Position numbers and translations under genes: made by a program. The notes below the pieces were generated by a model. That model saw only the letters and a program-made list of their open reading frames with translations. It was not told the DNA's origin and did no database searches. This document shows positions 37,532-41,337 of a stretch of DNA of 64,000 bases, piece after piece (position 1 is the first letter of the stretch; each line of letters starts with the position of its first letter). The DNA comes from Escherichia phage vB_EcoD-Elw. The DNA lies in the sequence record OR621298; one strand, 5' to 3'.

Positions 37532-37646
37532 TCAAATTTTTTAACTTTTTAGAGGAAAATCATAGGGCACTTAAGGATAGCAGATAAGTGGTGAGGACCA
37601 AAATTTGTGACCCCACTAAAAATTCAGGGGCAATTTTTAAAGACCC

Positions 37647-37675
37647 CTTGACATTTTCGCTGGGGTAGTGTAAAG
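37647..37675 (+). promoter_or_regulatory. sigma70-like promoter (-35 TTGACA, -10 TAAAGT) for the plus-strand cassette
   Basis: Consensus -35 with 17-bp spacer; -10 matches 4 of 6; preceded by a GGGG...CCCC hairpin. Confidence 0.4.
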
Positions 37676-37737
37676 TATATGTTATGGATGAGTGATCAAA
37701 GAGACACACATTTTCTATATACTAGGAGGTGTCAAAA

Positions 37738-38721
37738 ATGACAGAAGAAGTAGCTAAGAGTCCTGAGACCGTCGCTAGCGTTGCAGCAGAACTGCACCGT
37801 CACGAGGAATCAGATAAGAAAAAGTGGGAGAAGGTCAGAGCCTACGAAGAAAAACATCGTGAACACGATGATGAAGAAGATGATGATGAACATTGTCATA
37901 AATATGGAAAACATAAAATGCAAGAACCAGTAAACGTATTTACTAGTGGCTTCCCTGGCCTACTGGGTGGTTACCCAGCAAACGCAGGTGCTTTCGGTGG
38001 TGAAGGTATGGGACTATTCGGAGCTATCCTAATCGGTGCTCTATTAACAGGCGGATTCGGTGGTTTCGGTGGATTCGGTGGACGTGGTGTAGTTGGTGAT
38101 GGTACCGCAGTTGATGCAGTACTTCAGAACCAAGATACCGCTAGTATTCTAGCAGCTATTAACACTACTCGTACAGAAGCTAACCAGGGTACTGGAGCTG
38201 TTTTAAGCGCAGTTAACAATGGGTTTAGCCAGACATCCCAAAACCAGAGCCGTGATACTCAGTCTGTACTAACTACGATCTATGGTACAGGTGCTAATCT
38301 GTCTAATCAGATCTGTCAGGAAACTCGCAACGTTATTCAGGGTCAGTTCGATCTTTCTCGCCAGATTGATCAATCTTTCGCAGCTAATCAGATAGCTCGT
38401 GCACAAGATAAGTTTGATTCTGCACAGATCGCTTTCCAGCAGACTTTACAAACTAATAACCAGTTTGCCGCTGTTCAGGCTCAGATGTGTGCTAACCAGA
38501 ACTCTCTGGAACGTCAGATCGCTGAATGTTGCTGTGAACTTCAGACTGCGATCGCTGGTGTAACTACTGCGCGTATTCAGGATGAGTTAGATGCATGTCG
38601 CCTACGTGAAGCAATCGCTGCGGGTAACGGTGCTAACGGTCAGGTAATTAATCAAATCGCTGTAAGTCTTGGTGCTATCACTCAGACTCTGGCTGGTCTG
38701 CAGGCTAAACTGCCGGCTTAA
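37738..38721 (+). CDS. low-complexity protein: acidic/His N-terminus, Gly-rich hydrophobic segment, Q/N-rich C-terminus
   Basis: Track ORF 37729..38721 (GTG) trimmed to ATG 9 nt after RBS AGGAGG; GGFGGFGGFGG and hydrophobic GLFGAILIGALLTGG segment. Confidence 0.55.
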   Translation: MTEEVAKSPETVASVAAELHRHEESDKKKWEKVRAYEEKHREHDDEEDDDEHCHKYGKHKMQEPVNVFTSGFPGLLGGYPANAGAFGGEGMGLFGAILIGALLTGGFGGFGGFGGRGVVGDGTAVDAVLQNQDTASILAAINTTRTEANQGTGAVLSAVNNGFSQTSQNQSRDTQSVLTTIYGTGANLSNQICQETRNVIQGQFDLSRQIDQSFAANQIARAQDKFDSAQIAFQQTLQTNNQFAAVQAQMCANQNSLERQIAECCCELQTAIAGVTTARIQDELDACRLREAIAAGNGANGQVINQIAVSLGAITQTLAGLQAKLPA

Positions 38722-38742
38722 TATTAAGGGGAGGAGCCCATT

Positions 38743-39159
38743 ATGAGTAAATATGGTTTTGTAAATAACGGACTTAATCAAAGTATGGGCTCCCAGCAGC
38801 CCATTCCGGGTCTGGATAACCCCTACTTACAACAATTGCAACAGCGTTTAGCAGAAGCGCAACAGATGCAGCAACAACTCCAGCAAAACCCTGGAAGTGT
38901 GAGTCCTATGCAAATGATGCAGCAAATGAGCGGGCAGTCGCAAATGCCTCAACAAATGCAGCAACAGGTGCCGCAGCAGCAAGCTCAGCAGCAAACCCAA
39001 CAACCGCAGGTTTCTGCGGAAGGACAGGCAGTACTAGCCCTTTTCGAAGACTTCGCAAAGACAGAGGATGGTAAGCAGCTTGTATCACTTATGGGTAAGT
39101 TTAATAGCTTCTGCCAAAGCCAGGTTGCAAAAGCTCAAAATAGTGGTAATAACTCCTAA
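38743..39159 (+). CDS. Gln-rich low-complexity protein
   Basis: 138-aa ORF; RBS GGGGAGGAG; central QQ/MQ repeats. Confidence 0.5.
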   Translation: MSKYGFVNNGLNQSMGSQQPIPGLDNPYLQQLQQRLAEAQQMQQQLQQNPGSVSPMQMMQQMSGQSQMPQQMQQQVPQQQAQQQTQQPQVSAEGQAVLALFEDFAKTEDGKQLVSLMGKFNSFCQSQVAKAQNSGNNS

Positions 39160-39168
39160 GGAGGAATT

Positions 39169-39363
39169 ATGTGTTGCAGAAAATCTGTTTCGTGCTGCCC
39201 AATGCCTGTAGCACGTTGTTGCTCTCCAGCAATGTTTACGCAAATACCGGCGTTCAATCCGTTTGCCTTTAAGCCTACTCTTATCCTGCCCCCTAGAGTA
39301 GATTTTCAGTCAAGATTGGCCTCCCGTATGGGTGGTTGCTGTAATAAGAGTATATGGTTCTGA
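39169..39363 (+). CDS. Cys/Pro-rich small peptide (64 aa)
   Basis: RBS AGGAGG; paired CC motifs (MCCRK, SCC, RCC, GGCC). Confidence 0.45.
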   Translation: MCCRKSVSCCPMPVARCCSPAMFTQIPAFNPFAFKPTLILPPRVDFQSRLASRMGGCCNKSIWF

Positions 39364-39377
39364 AGAACCAAACAATA

Positions 39378-39413
39378 AAGCCCCTAGTCGAAAGACTTAG
39401 GGGCTTTTCTTTT
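39378..39413 (+). terminator. rho-independent terminator
   Basis: stem AAGCCCCTAG/CTAGGGGCTT followed by TTTTCTTTT. Confidence 0.65.
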
Positions 39414-39420
39414 ATCTTAA

Positions 39421-39460
39421 ATACAGAAAAGCCCTGCGCTCTCCAGGAAACGCAGGGCTT
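39421..39460 (-). terminator. rho-independent terminator (convergent)
   Basis: stem AGCCCTGCG/CGCAGGGCT with U-run in minus sense, downstream of the SPFH gene. Confidence 0.55.
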
Positions 39461-39483: not shown

Positions 39484-40431
39484 TTACTTATTACGCATAT
39501 CCATAATCATTTGGCCATCATAGCCAGTGCCAACCACAGTCTGCGGTACACCACCTTGGTATTTCTGAGCACGAATCATTTCAACTTCCAGTTGCTTCCA
39601 GCGAATCATCTCAGGAGTAATGGTACGTTGCAACGCGGCGTTAGCTTCAGCTTCTTTCTTAGCTGCGTACAGTTTGGCATCTGCGTCACGCTCATTGGCA
39701 ATAGCTTGGTTATTACGAGCTTCGCGATCTGCTTCTGCTTGTTTAACCTTCTGCTGTGCTTCTTGTTCAACACGAGCCAGTTCAGCTTTCGCAGCATTAA
39801 CTTGCTCTTCACGAACTTTGGTATTCTGTACCTGTTCCATGATTACCGGTGGCAAAGTAATATCCTGAAGGAATACCTGCTTAACTGTATAACCATATGG
39901 GCGTGCATACTCTTCAACTTCCTGTTGAATTGCAGTTTGCAATTGAGCCTGAATTTTAGCATCAAACAAATCTTGTGCTTTAGGTACAGACTTACCAAAC
40001 TCACGAATAGTAGACAGTAATTTTTCAGTTACATATTTGTCTAGCGCTTGATCCTGAGTACCTGCGTTAATACGGTTAATCGGTGCCTTAGAACCATCAA
40101 ACTGCAACATAACAGTCAGGTCAACAGTGGATTTAAACTTATCCTGACTAGGAACCTGAAGTTTATCTAATTTTAGAGCAATATCTTTAGTACTAAAAGT
40201 ATCGAAAGAAGCAAAAGGATTTACAATATGAAAGCCGGGTAGTACTGGGCTAGGGTCAACTTTACCCAGGAAAGTCTGGGTTTTAACAGTACCGTCTTGA
40301 ACAACGGTATAAGAGTTAAAGGCTAGAATCAAGCCTGCTAAACCAACTATAGCACCAATACCCCAACGTTTAATAGTACGAATTACTTTCTGCTCAGAAG
40401 TCAGTTCTTTCATATTTTTAGTATTAAACAT
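39484..40431 (-). CDS. SPFH/band-7 (prohibitin/HflC-like) membrane protein
   Basis: 315-aa ORF; N-terminal TM, SPFH-like core, C-terminal coiled-coil rich in E/A/Q/K. Confidence 0.6.
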   Translation of the reverse strand: MFNTKNMKELTSEQKVIRTIKRWGIGAIVGLAGLILAFNSYTVVQDGTVKTQTFLGKVDPSPVLPGFHIVNPFASFDTFSTKDIALKLDKLQVPSQDKFKSTVDLTVMLQFDGSKAPINRINAGTQDQALDKYVTEKLLSTIREFGKSVPKAQDLFDAKIQAQLQTAIQQEVEEYARPYGYTVKQVFLQDITLPPVIMEQVQNTKVREEQVNAAKAELARVEQEAQQKVKQAEADREARNNQAIANERDADAKLYAAKKEAEANAALQRTITPEMIRWKQLEVEMIRAQKYQGGVPQTVVGTGYDGQMIMDMRNK

Positions 40432-40540: not shown

Positions 40541-41337
40541 TTTAAGTATTTTTAAGAACTCTCGTAAAAACTCTTAAAAATACAGACGATACCGGGAGAG
40601 TCATAAGTCTCACTCATTAAGTATTTCAAGACAAAATACAGTAACGTCTATTATTTTCCAGTTTAAGTCAAGGTGACTTAGTGGTTATGTCCTGCGGTAT
40701 ACTGAGGACTCGGTTAGGATTGGGGTCATGACTTCCCGCCTTTTGCTGCTACTCAACAGGAGTTATCGCGAATTACCTGTGCTATTGTGCACCATTAGTG
40801 ACATCTCTCATGTCAGCATTTCCCACTTTGTGGATAGCTTGAAAAACTACTCCGATATGGAGAAAGAACTTCACTATCCTAGAATACCTTCTAAAGTTCT
40901 TCTTTAGCCTGGACATAGTTAAATCGTAATAAAACTATTCAGCAGACTAGTTGGTTAGTCTGGAACCAACTACCGCGTGGTTTAGGCAGTGCGCAACTAA
41001 CCTCGGAAGCTTTTACGTTAAAAGCATCAGTTATCCAGTTCTTACCGACCGTAGGATTCGAACCTACATCTTCCACCAGTTACGGCTTGATAATACCAAT
41101 TATACTAGGACGGCAGTGTTACTACATAAGTGATTTCCACACCCCACTATTTATAAATTAGGGAAGAGTTTAGGGGAGAGGTTTCAGACGCCTCATTTTA
41201 TACGTTCTAGCCACTAACCGGGATTGCCGCCCCCTGTGTACTAGTTTTACAACTAACCCACCGACTCTATTCAATGCGCTCCGGTTGGGATTCTGCACTC
41301 AGCGTAATCGGCTCGCTGTTCCCTAATTTATGAATAT

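What the first reader, a model, noticed from the sequence alone, without database searches (positions are those of the whole stretch)
37647..39413. Self-contained plus-strand cassette of three low-complexity proteins inside the minus-strand early region
Three co-oriented genes (37738-38721, 38743-39159, 39169-39363) run against the surrounding minus-strand transcription. They have their own TTGACA promoter, strong RBSs, and a strong terminator that converges on the terminator of the SPFH gene. The products are unlike anything nearby: (i) an acidic/His-rich N-terminus, then a Gly-rich hydrophobic segment (GGFGGFGGFGG), then a Q/N-rich tail; (ii) a Gln-rich protein; (iii) a 64-aa peptide with paired cysteines. 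The pattern suggests a membrane- or envelope-acting module or a modified-peptide precursor. I could not assign a family by eye, which makes it the best candidate here for something undescribed.
Basis: partly seen in the sequence, partly recalled or inferred. Interest (0 to 1): 0.7.

Follow-up and report, generated by a model that had tools for sequence, protein, structure and literature searches.

The report
Accessory three-gene cassette in T5-like phages
This is a real, self-contained and dispensable three-gene unit of T5-like phages (T5.077, T5.078 and an unnamed 64-codon ORF), already annotated in phage T5 but of unknown function, whose main product is a membrane-anchored helical protein with an invariant triple cysteine that belongs to a large unnamed family found in many unrelated phages.

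Summary
The window is a T5-like phage. Positions 37628-39414 form one plus-strand unit: a sigma-70 promoter, three genes with strong ribosome-binding sites, and a hairpin terminator facing the terminator of the SPFH gene.

It is not undescribed as a feature. GenBank records of T5, BF23 and phage 5 annotate it as promoter P12, three ORFs and bidirectional terminator ter1. All three products are listed as hypothetical.

New points from this work:
- The same three-gene module occurs in unrelated high-GC Pseudomonas phages (KPP23, RSP).
- The unit is accessory. It is in 221 phage records, against 448 for the flanking SPFH gene, and it was lost by at least two independent deletions that left remnants.
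- ORF1 belongs to a broad viral superfamily with an invariant Cys-Cys-Cys motif. It has no match in Pfam, NCBIfam, PADLOC or PDB.
- ORF3 is coding, yet its synonymous sites are abnormally conserved and fold into plus-strand hairpins that cover its own ribosome-binding site.

Function remains unknown. My best guess is a moron-type early module that builds a membrane-tethered cysteine-cluster complex on the cytoplasmic face of the inner membrane. Spanin and modified-peptide readings are not supported. Interest is moderate.

The parts
37648..37676 (+). Sigma-70-type promoter (T5 'P12'): -35 TTGACA at 37648-37653, 17-bp spacer, -10 TAAAGT at 37671-37676
   Evidence: Consensus scan gives 10 of 12 matches. 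It sits at the same position relative to ORF1 as the annotated promoter P12 in T5, BF23 and phage 5.
37738..38721 (+). ORF1, 327 aa (T5.077 homologue). Layout: N-terminal helix (residues 12-46), acidic/His-rich linker, Gly-zipper-like hydrophobic segment (residues 90-116), long alpha-helical Q/N/A/T-rich domain (133-324), invariant CCC at residues 264-266. SD AGGAGG at 37724-37729.
   Evidence: Matches PHROG 8119 at E=4e-203. 80.8% amino-acid identity to T5. Codon-position pattern of variable sites is 67/41/200.
38743..39159 (+). ORF2, 138 aa (T5.078 homologue). Layout: N-terminal helix (NPYLQQLQQRLAEAQ), a Q/P/M-rich linker of variable length, and a conserved C-terminal ~45-aa helical hairpin (EGQAVLALFEDFAKTEDGKQLVSLMGKFNSFCQS). 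No signal peptide.
   Evidence: Matches PHROG 7894 at E=1e-79. 117 homologues, all of them from phage records or unnamed assembly and metagenome contigs of up to about 149 kb. Orthologue present in KPP23/RSP.
39169..39363 (+). ORF3, 64 aa. Begins MCC, has four CC pairs, is Pro/Phe-rich and carries a net charge of +7. SD GGAGG at 39160-39164 lies just after the ORF2 stop codon.
   Evidence: Annotated 'ORF 64aa' in T5, BF23 and phage 5. Distant relatives keep a 60-69-codon ORF starting MCC directly after the ORF2 homologue: L014, L015 and KPP23/RSP.
39160..39341 (+). Predicted plus-strand RNA structure inside ORF3. Hairpin A pairs the SD/AUG (39160-39179) with 39206-39225. Hairpin B spans 39227-39341. 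This coincides with the stretch where synonymous change is suppressed.
   Evidence: Synonymous variation is seen in 17% of invariant codons against 56-58% in ORF1 and ORF2 (p=4e-7). This is the least variable stretch. Alifold analysis shows all 5 variable pairs of hairpin B stay paired, one through a double change. z-score is -4.2 for 39160-39415.
39380..39413 (+). Intrinsic terminator ter1: 10-bp stem with one bulge, GAAA loop, then TTTTCTTTT. T5 annotates it as bidirectional.
   Evidence: RNAfold; T5, BF23 and phage 5 annotation; VAH1 terminator annotation. The stem sequence varies between phages while the hairpin is kept (alignment).
39429..39460 (-). Convergent terminator of the SPFH gene. 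It is not part of the cassette but bounds it, and it contains GCGC (39436-39439) at the site of the annotated T5 major nick.
   Evidence: 13-bp stem; nick annotation in T5 and BF23.

Best explanation
**Shown**
- The region is a discrete, horizontally shared accessory transcription unit. It has the anatomy of a phage 'moron': own promoter, three genes, own terminator, opposite orientation, higher G+C.
- It is the counterpart of T5.077, T5.078 and 'ORF 64aa'.
- It is dispensable and has been lost repeatedly.
- Its core protein ORF1 is one member of a large, unnamed viral protein superfamily. The family is defined by a roughly 80-residue helical domain with an invariant Cys-Cys-Cys, usually preceded by a Gly-rich hydrophobic anchor.
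- ORF2 and ORF3 are lineage-specific partners. They travel with ORF1 in T5-like phages and in Pseudomonas phages KPP23 and RSP.

**Inferred**
- Host RNA polymerase transcribes the unit early.
- ORF1 inserts into the inner membrane through its Gly-zipper segment and oligomerises through its long helical hairpins.
- Its CCC domain is on the cytoplasmic side. There it meets the signal-less ORF2 and the Cys-pair-rich ORF3 and forms a thiol- or metal-based cluster.
- ORF3 translation is coupled to ORF2 by a hairpin that hides its ribosome-binding site.

**Guessed (the weakest step)**
- The complex changes a membrane-associated process to the phage's benefit in natural hosts. The most likely targets are exclusion of secondary infection or neutralisation of a membrane-associated host response. 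It is not needed for replication itself.
For: **Autonomy.** Promoter, ribosome-binding sites and terminator are all present. The T5, BF23 and phage 5 records annotate P12 and ter1. G+C is 45.7% against 38-39% in the flanks.

**Accessory status.**
- The cassette is in 221 records, while the adjacent SPFH gene is in 448.
- Phage gmork has NadR next to SPFH with only a roughly 40-nt scar of ORF3 sequence between them.
- Phage MSP1 has a different deletion, 37549-39261, plus a homing-endonuclease gene inserted in ter1.

**Shared module.** KPP23 and RSP carry ORF1, ORF2 and ORF3 homologues in the same order as the first genes of an operon that diverges from the structural genes.

**Superfamily.**
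- 99 cluster representatives score at E<=1e-3 among 1.84 billion proteins.
- 83 of 113 fetched proteins carry CCC in the same helical context.
- PHROGs 8119, 9288, 16490 and 9415 are all labelled 'unknown'.
- Members occur in crAss-like, Aeromonas and Firmicutes-type phage contigs.

**Membrane anchor and orientation.**
- The hydrophobic segment scores KD 1.72.
- In 73 anchored members, the N-flank has 0.27 K+R against 0.71 in the C-flank (N<C in 37, N>C in 5), and the N-tails are acidic.
- 87 members have no anchor at all.
- ORF2 and ORF3 lack signal peptides.

**Helical hairpin fold.** AlphaFold2 with a 54-sequence alignment gives pLDDT of about 77-87 (10-residue block means) over residues 181-250, with helices at 133-168, 174-272 and 278-324.

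**Early position.** The gene is first or second in the early operon of KPP23 and phiWae15.

**ORF3 hairpin.**
Against: - No experiment or homology links any of the three proteins to a function.
- T5 ORF1 has a 90-residue charged N-terminal region. Exporting it without a signal peptide would be unusual, so its topology could be the reverse (N-in, C-out). That would put six Cys in the oxidising periplasm.
- In several distant phages the family gene sits beside tail-fibre, holin or endolysin genes. This points to lysis or virion roles rather than early takeover.
- No timing or expression data were obtained for this cassette.
- The structure model is only moderately confident (mean pLDDT 64, pTM 0.28) and is monomeric.
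- The 221 versus 448 count rests on megablast detection. Redundant RefSeq and GenBank pairs inflate both numbers.
Confidence: 0.4

Rival explanations
1. Lysis-timing module. ORF1 would be a holin- or antiholin-like protein with one membrane segment, an N-terminal cytoplasmic domain and a large C-terminal domain, as in the T4 T holin. ORF2 and ORF3 would modulate it, and the cysteines would act as a redox timer.
For: Single hydrophobic segment with large flanking domains. Distant family members lie directly after a holin-like 2-TM gene (L021) or within about 1 kb of an endolysin, with a holin beside it in L043 (L020, L043).
Against: In the T5 map the holin and endolysin (T5.041, T5.040) lie about 18 kb away with their own promoter. 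In KPP23 and phiWae15 the gene opens the early operon. Many family members have no membrane segment. The cassette is absent from half of the T5-like records, which still lyse their hosts.
Confidence: 0.15
2. Periplasm-spanning envelope module (spanin-like or injection-blocking). ORF1 would be N-in and C-out, with a roughly 150-residue coiled coil reaching across the periplasm and locked by intermolecular disulfides. ORF3 would be its outer partner.
For: Long continuous helices. Conserved cysteines sit in the helical domain. ORF3 is Pro-rich, which from my own recollection resembles o-spanins. The long charged N-terminus of T5 ORF1 favours N-in.
Against: ORF2 and ORF3 have no signal peptide or lipobox. 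Flank charges across the family favour C-in, and 87 members lack an anchor. T5 is not among the phages listed as spanin-less by Kongari et al. 2018 (PMC6139136). The cassette is dispensable and is not linked to the lysis genes.
Confidence: 0.1
3. Metal handling. The His-rich acidic N-terminus, the CCC motif and the CC pairs would bind Cu, Zn or Ni, sequestering or delivering metal at the membrane during infection.
For: His tracts in some orthologues, for example HHYHHHHHEHYEE. Invariant CCC and CC-rich ORF3. Cys-rich C-terminal tails (PFCGCGCG) in single-gene relatives.
Against: The His-rich stretch is the most variable part of ORF1 and is absent from distant orthologues. No known metal-binding family matches. 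There is no obvious benefit to a lytic phage.
Confidence: 0.1
4. Condensate or scaffold. The prion-like Q/N-rich and Gly/aromatic-rich segments of ORF1 and ORF2 would drive a membrane-attached condensate that organises phage processes.
For: ORF2 is 27% Q. The ORF1 tail is 22% Q+N. GFGGFGGFGG and GYGYG-type segments recur in relatives.
Against: The Q-rich linker of ORF2 varies in length and is nearly absent in distant orthologues, whereas the flanking helices are conserved. The Q/N-rich part of ORF1 is predicted as ordered helix.
Confidence: 0.07
5. ORF3 is a precursor of a ribosomally made, modified peptide.
For: It is small and Cys-rich with paired cysteines.
Against: No modifying enzyme, protease or exporter is present in the cassette or conserved beside it in T5-likes, L014/L015 or KPP23. 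There is no leader/core organisation. The sequence diverges strongly apart from MCC and the CC pairs.
Confidence: 0.03

Closest known systems
T5 genes T5.077 and T5.078 and the unnamed 'ORF 64aa', with promoter P12 and terminator ter1 (AY543070); the same unit in BF23 (AJ604530) and phage 5 (AJ604531)
   Same: Same unit at the same locus, between the primase-related ORF trn2.1 and the SPFH gene ORF trn1.1. Gene order, promoter, ribosome-binding sites, bidirectional terminator and adjacent major nick all match. ORF1 is 80.8% identical to T5 and about 98% at the DNA level to phage 5.
   Different: Nothing essential differs. This window is a Salmonella/E. coli Tequintavirus variant, 99% identical to VAH1 over the cassette. 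All these records call the products 'hypothetical'.
Phage 'morons': autonomous promoter-gene-terminator insertions described in lambdoid phages (own knowledge: Hendrix and co-workers)
   Same: Own promoter and terminator, opposite orientation to neighbours, higher G+C, presence/absence polymorphism between identical flanks, and the same module in unrelated phages.
   Different: It sits in the early region of a virulent phage rather than in a prophage late operon, and it has three genes rather than one. The scars indicate loss from an ancestral state rather than recent gain.
Superinfection-exclusion membrane proteins (T4 Imm and Sp, P22 SieA, lactococcal Sie2009; own knowledge)
   Same: Small accessory, membrane-associated genes. 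They are early in lytic phages, or located in the cargo slot between lysis genes and the integrase in temperate ones, as in L044. They are dispensable in the laboratory.
   Different: No sequence or profile similarity to anything annotated. The predicted bulk of the protein is cytoplasmic, whereas, from my own recollection, several exclusion proteins act on the outer face. The function is untested.
Two-component spanins (lambda Rz/Rz1)
   Same: A membrane-anchored protein with a long helical domain carrying conserved Cys, followed by a small Pro- and Cys-containing protein.
   Different: No lipobox or signal peptide in ORF3. Not linked to the holin or endolysin. Dispensable. T5 is not in the spanin-less list. 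The charge rule favours a cytoplasmic domain.
Glycine-zipper membrane proteins (for example SlyB/PCP-type Gly-zipper lipoproteins)
   Same: A GxxxG-rich hydrophobic segment. The only PDB profile hit in that region is SlyB, at E=4.9, which is not significant.
   Different: No Pfam Gly-zipper family is matched. ORF1 is not a lipoprotein. The defining conserved part of the family is the CCC helical domain, not the zipper.
Long alpha-helical hairpin proteins (winter-flounder 'Maxi' antifreeze 4ke2, Vipp1/ESCRT-III, HIV gp41, phasin)

Membership tests
Phage moron-type autonomous accessory cassette | Own promoter upstream of the genes | tested here: met
   TTGACA-17-TAAAGT at 37648-37676. Annotated as promoter P12 in T5, BF23 and phage 5. 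Promoter activity itself was not measured here.
Phage moron-type autonomous accessory cassette | Own intrinsic terminator downstream | tested here: met
   Hairpin 39380-39404 plus T-run. T5 annotates it as an 'efficient bidirectional rho-independent terminator'.
Phage moron-type autonomous accessory cassette | Presence/absence polymorphism between the same flanking genes in related phages | tested here: met
   Bas26 and Sepoy have NadR-cassette-SPFH, whereas gmork has NadR-SPFH. MSP1 carries a different deletion. 221 versus 448 records.
Phage moron-type autonomous accessory cassette | Composition differing from the host genome | tested here: inconclusive
   G+C is 45.7% against 38-39% in the flanks. 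However, GC3 of ORF1 (0.33) is close to its neighbours (0.29-0.30), so part of the difference comes from Gly/Ala-rich coding.
PHROG 8119 / PHROG 7894 (unknown function) | Full-length profile match | tested here: met
   ORF1 E=4e-203 over 1-327. ORF2 E=1e-79 over 1-138. ORF3 matches no PHROG.
CCC-motif helical domain superfamily (defined here; unnamed) | Invariant Cys-Cys-Cys within [AS]-[ED]-C-C-C-E-[LIV]-[KQ], followed by a helix carrying T-R-x-[LI] and L-[RQ]-D-x-L | tested here: met
   ORF1 residues 262-289 read AECCCELQTAIAGVTTARIQDELDACRL. CCC is the only invariant block across 30 diverse members.
CCC-motif helical domain superfamily (defined here; unnamed) | Statistically significant profile relationship to members outside T5-like phages | tested here: met
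   hmmsearch against 1.84 billion representatives gives E-values from 1e-13 to 1e-3 for non-T5-like members. Reciprocal hits of those members to PHROG 8119 have E from 5e-13 to 5e-7.
Two-component spanin (i-spanin plus o-spanin) | o-spanin with an N-terminal lipoprotein signal (lipobox Cys) | tested here: not met
   ORF3 starts MCCRKSVSCC with no hydrophobic h-region. ORF2 has no signal sequence (maximum KD 0.45).
Two-component spanin (i-spanin plus o-spanin) | i-spanin of type II topology with a periplasmic coiled coil | tested here: inconclusive
   One hydrophobic segment and long helices are present. Flank charges across the family favour C-in. The topology of T5-type ORF1 itself is unresolved.
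Two-component spanin (i-spanin plus o-spanin) | Required for lysis, usually linked to holin and endolysin | tested here: not met
   Absent from about half of the T5-like records. The T5 holin and lys genes are about 18 kb away. T5 is not listed as spanin-less.
RiPP (modified peptide) gene cluster | Precursor peptide gene next to a modifying enzyme, protease or exporter | tested here: not met
   No such gene is in the cassette or conserved next to it in T5-likes, L014/L015 or KPP23. There are no Pfam hits.
Known anti-phage defence or counter-defence proteins (PADLOC models) | Profile match to a catalogued defence component | tested here: not met
   No hit for ORF1-3 or for the SPFH neighbour at E<=0.01.
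Superinfection-exclusion proteins | Blocks entry of a second phage when expressed | not testable with these tools
   Only circumstantial evidence is available: early or cargo position, membrane anchor, dispensability. No homology to annotated exclusion proteins.
Rfam RNA families (for the conserved ORF3 stretch) | Covariance-model match | tested here: not met
   Only a sub-threshold Phe-leader hit on the terminator (25.6 bits against a gathering score of 55). Nothing in 39160-39341.

The most novel reading that the evidence does not exclude
The CCC-motif proteins would be a previously unrecognised, widespread class of phage effectors: membrane-tethered or soluble helical hairpins that assemble around a cysteine-based metal or redox cluster. 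In T5-like and KPP23-like phages this would operate as a three-protein complex made immediately on infection. ORF3 would in addition be a dual-use locus, coding for a Cys-pair peptide while its mRNA folds into a conserved regulatory structure.
Probability: 0.25. Interest if true: 0.75.

Novelty: new member of a known kind. Interest (0 to 1): 0.45.

Why it matters
T5 is a classic model phage, and T5-like phages are widely isolated for biocontrol and therapy. About half of them carry this unit, and nobody knows what it does.

Showing that its core protein belongs to a family spread over crAss-like, Firmicutes-type, Aeromonas, Pseudomonas and enterobacterial phages turns a T5 'hypothetical' into an entry point for a broad piece of viral dark matter. 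T5 and the BASEL phages offer a genetically tractable system, with natural cassette-plus and cassette-minus pairs to compare.

If the triple cysteine builds a metal or redox cluster at the membrane, that would be a new kind of phage-host interface.

The ORF3 stretch also offers a compact case for separating protein-level from RNA-level selection in a phage gene.

Tried and rejected
- **Family assignment by sequence.** Pfam gave only sub-threshold noise (RIFIN, Granulin and similar). NCBIfam gave only sub-threshold noise, and PADLOC gave nothing for ORF1-3. PDB profile searches gave nothing significant.
- **Structure.**
  - The first AlphaFold2 run, with 17 sequences, was poor (pLDDT 47).
  - A 54-sequence alignment gave pLDDT 64 and a helical-hairpin model.
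  - Foldseek against PDB returned zero hits.
  - The fold is therefore not diagnostic.
- **Spanin hypothesis.** Rejected for the reasons given in the membership test.
- **ORF2 as a kinase.** The 'cAMP-dependent protein kinase catalytic subunit' label in several GenBank records has no support.
- **ORF2 homologues beside distant family members.** hhalign against the downstream genes in L020 and L044, and against the DUF7841 protein, gave probabilities <=0.2%.
- **ORF3 as a detached copy of the Cys-rich C-terminal tail** ('VVRYP-x9-[SN]PFCGCGCG') found in single-gene relatives. The spacing looked similar, but hhalign probability was 0.1%. Not supported.
- **ORF3 as a purely non-coding RNA.** Rejected, because MCC-initiated ORFs of similar length persist in very divergent genomes, including GC-rich ones.
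- **Rfam match for the conserved stretch.** None.
- **Literature.** No paper in the held library mentions T5.077-T5.080, the RefSeq tags or the PHROG numbers. The Bas33 RNA-seq and proteomics dataset (PMC13250531) could not be used, because the stored supplement is truncated and the relevant locus tags were not found.
Full report
**What the window is.** It is a T5-like phage (Demerecviridae, Tequintavirus). It carries 24 minus-strand tRNA genes. The region 37600-39450 is 99% identical to Escherichia phage vB_EcoS_VAH1 and matches 221 phage records, 217 of them over at least 80% of its length.

**Check of the observation.**
- The three plus-strand ORFs are at the stated coordinates, and all neighbouring genes are on the minus strand.
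- A sigma-70-type promoter is present: TTGACA, 17 bp, TAAAGT at 37648-37676, matching 10 of 12 positions.
- Three strong Shine-Dalgarno sequences are present.
- A hairpin terminator with a stem at 39380-39404 and a T-run follows ORF3. The simple scan missed it because the stem has a one-base bulge.
- The SPFH gene's own terminator converges on it at 39460-39429.
- The compositional description is accurate.
- Coding is supported for ORF1 and ORF2 by the excess of third-position variation: 67/41/200 and 32/35/82 variable sites by codon position in 13 genomes.

**The feature is already annotated.** The T5 genome (AY543070) and the BF23 and phage 5 tRNA-region records annotate the following at this locus: 'promoter P12'; ORFs of 326-327, 138 and 64 aa in BF23 and phage 5 (T5.077, T5.078 and an unnamed 64-aa ORF in T5), with ribosome-binding sites annotated in the BF23 and phage 5 records; an 'efficient bidirectional rho-independent transcription terminator' (ter1); and a major single-chain interruption just beyond it. 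All products are called hypothetical. The feature is therefore known, while its function is not. No paper in the held library mentions these genes.

**The cassette is a discrete, dispensable unit.**
- The flanking SPFH gene is found in 448 phage records, the cassette in 221.
- In Epseptimavirus genomes the order is NadR, cassette, SPFH in Sepoy and Bas26. In phage gmork it is NadR directly followed by SPFH.
- The gmork junction retains a roughly 40-nt scar made of two pieces of ORF3 (TAGCACGTTGTTGCTG | CAATAATAGTATATGATTCTAA) followed by ter1.
- Phage MSP1 has a different deletion, equivalent to 37549-39261. It keeps the 3' half of ORF3 and carries a homing-endonuclease gene inserted into ter1.
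- These are at least two independent losses from a cassette-bearing ancestor.
- The cassette has 45.7% G+C against 38-39% around it, partly because of Gly/Ala-rich coding.
- From my own knowledge, it also lies in the part of the T5 map where viable deletion mutants have long been known. I did not verify this here.

**The same three-gene module exists in unrelated phages.**
- More distant relatives on roughly 110-kb contigs, with ORF1 36-47% identical, keep ORF1, ORF2 and a 63-69-codon ORF starting MCC.
- The high-GC Pseudomonas siphoviruses KPP23 and RSP (63 kb) carry homologues of all three genes in the same order. They are the first genes of the operon that diverges from the structural genes.
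- The C-terminal 90 residues of ORF1 are much better conserved between enterobacterial and Pseudomonas phages than the rest of the protein (about 43% identical overall).

**ORF1 belongs to a large unnamed superfamily.**
- A profile of ORF1 orthologues, searched against 1.84 billion cluster representatives, found 99 proteins at E<=1e-3.
- 83 of 113 retrieved proteins share the signature [AS]-[ED]-C-C-C-E-[LIV]-[KQ] followed by a helix with T-R-x-[LI] and L-[RQ]-D-x-L. The three cysteines are the only invariant columns across 30 diverse members.
- These proteins hit PHROGs 8119, 9288, 16490 and 9415, all labelled 'unknown function'. Those tested gave only sub-threshold hits in Pfam and NCBIfam, the ORF1 profile gave nothing significant in PDB, and the two distant members tested gave nothing meaningful in PADLOC.
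- Contexts examined:
  - the tail region of a crAss-like contig;
  - Firmicutes-type phage contigs, where the gene follows tail-fibre, holin or endolysin genes and lies in a recurring cluster with a BclA_C-like gene and DUF7841;
  - Aeromonas phage phiWae15, where it is the second gene of the operon that diverges from a minus-strand gene block, which I read as the early operon.
- ORF2 and ORF3 were not detectable outside the T5-like and KPP23 clades.

**Anatomy and likely topology of ORF1.**
- AlphaFold2 with a 54-sequence alignment predicts a confident N-terminal helix at residues 12-46, an unstructured acidic/His-rich linker and Gly-rich segment, and three long helices at 133-168, 174-272 and 278-324. 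The break falls just after the CCC.
- Fold searches return only generic helical hairpins.
- The Gly-rich segment (LFGAILIGALLTGGF) is hydrophobic enough for one membrane span, with KD 1.72.
- Across the family, 73 CCC proteins have such a segment before the CCC domain and 87 have none.
- In the anchored ones, the N-flank has fewer K/R (0.27 against 0.71; N<C in 37, N>C in 5) and more D/E. Short N-tails are acidic.
- By the positive-inside rule this favours a cytoplasmic CCC domain. That fits the anchor-less members and the absence of signal peptides in ORF2 and ORF3.
- The T5-type protein has a 90-residue N-terminal region, so its own orientation stays open.

**ORF3 is unusual.**
- It is coding, because MCC-initiated ORFs of similar length persist in very different nucleotide backgrounds.
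- In 13 T5-like genomes, only 17% of its amino-acid-invariant degenerate codons show synonymous change, against 56-58% in ORF1 and ORF2 of the same genomes (Fisher p=4e-7).
- The least variable stretch of the whole cassette is 39191-39340.
- RNAalifold predicts two plus-strand hairpins. One pairs the ORF3 Shine-Dalgarno sequence and AUG (39160-39179) with 39206-39225. The other is a long hairpin at 39227-39341.
- Across 21 distinct sequences, all five variable pairs of the long hairpin stay paired, including one double change. The many G-U pairs make the structure strand-specific.
- The covariation evidence is thin because variation is so low. No Rfam family matches.
- The simplest reading is translational coupling of ORF3 to ORF2 plus an mRNA-stability or processing element. 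This is inference.

**Mechanism.** I commit to the following, with the steps marked.
- *Shown:* an autonomous, accessory, horizontally shared early-type unit that encodes a CCC-family protein with two co-inherited partners.
- *Inferred:* transcription by host RNA polymerase from P12; membrane anchoring and oligomerisation of ORF1; a cytoplasmic cysteine-based cluster involving ORF3 and perhaps ORF2; coupled translation of ORF3.
- *Guessed:* the complex alters a membrane-associated process that matters in natural hosts but not for replication. Exclusion of secondary infection or neutralisation of a membrane-linked host response is the most likely process.
- *Rivals:* lysis-timing control, which is favoured by the contexts in Firmicutes-type phages; a periplasm-spanning module; metal handling; a condensate scaffold; and a modified-peptide precursor, which is the least likely.

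**Verdict.**
- The 'undescribed' claim is only half right. The feature is annotated, but the function and the family are not described.
- The envelope and modified-peptide interpretations are weak.
- The value of the finding lies in the family-level picture, the natural plus/minus variants, and the dual constraint on ORF3.
- Interest is moderate, at 0.45.

Noticed in passing
window 39436-39439 (within 39429-39460, minus-strand terminator): GCGC in the stem of the SPFH terminator lies at the position that the T5 and BF23 records annotate as the major single-chain interruption. By my own conversion of the T5 coordinate (39746 of 121750), this is the 32.6% nick. The nick site, a bidirectional terminator and a mosaic junction therefore all fall within about 80 bp.
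   Followed up: partly
window 41043-41114 (-): Rfam tRNA model hit (35.5 bits, above the gathering score) that ARAGORN did not call. It lies in the region the T5 and BF23 records call rnaX, 'stable RNA with unknown functions'.
   Followed up: no
window 38743-39159 and GenBank records JLBYU40, ESCO40, STWB21, Sepoy, HMD-P2: ORF2 is labelled 'cAMP-dependent protein kinase catalytic subunit' in several records. There is no kinase domain. The label is probably an artefact of the Q-rich low-complexity region that has propagated between records.
   Followed up: yes
window 39484-40431 versus 37600-39450: The cassette is 99% identical to VAH1, yet the adjacent SPFH gene is at most 96.5% identical to any record. 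This points to a recombination junction near ter1 and the nick.
   Followed up: no
L023 (phage MSP1) 3649-4179; T5 and BF23 tRNA region: In MSP1 a homing-endonuclease gene is inserted inside ter1, next to the cassette deletion. The T5 and BF23 tRNA regions carry several HNH homing endonucleases (hegA, hegE, hegF). These may drive the mosaicism and possibly the deletions.
   Followed up: partly
L043 9123-11232; L044 9081-11604; L020 9601-12318; L021 9727-12724: In Firmicutes-type phage contigs the CCC-family gene sits in a recurring cluster: a small sigma/HTH-like gene, a ~130-aa gene, a ~60-aa Q-rich gene, the CCC/TM gene, a ~120-aa gene (BclA_C-like, sub-threshold, in L043), and DUF7841. This is an uncharacterised conserved gene neighbourhood.
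   Followed up: partly
L018 (1.8-kb contig) and protein P0066: Some anchor-less CCC-family members have neighbours or fusions that hint at non-phage viruses. One neighbour gives a weak Pox_A32 packaging-ATPase hit. One N-terminal extension looked to me, by eye only, like a capping-enzyme or ligase domain; I ran no search on it. The soluble subfamily member P0092 has no tblastn match in 50,697 phage records.
   Followed up: no
L017 5001-5786: The CCC-family gene on this contig contains in-frame TGA codons where relatives have Trp (GFG*GG, GGF*GP). This suggests a recoded genetic code (TGA read as Trp) in that phage or its host.
   Followed up: no
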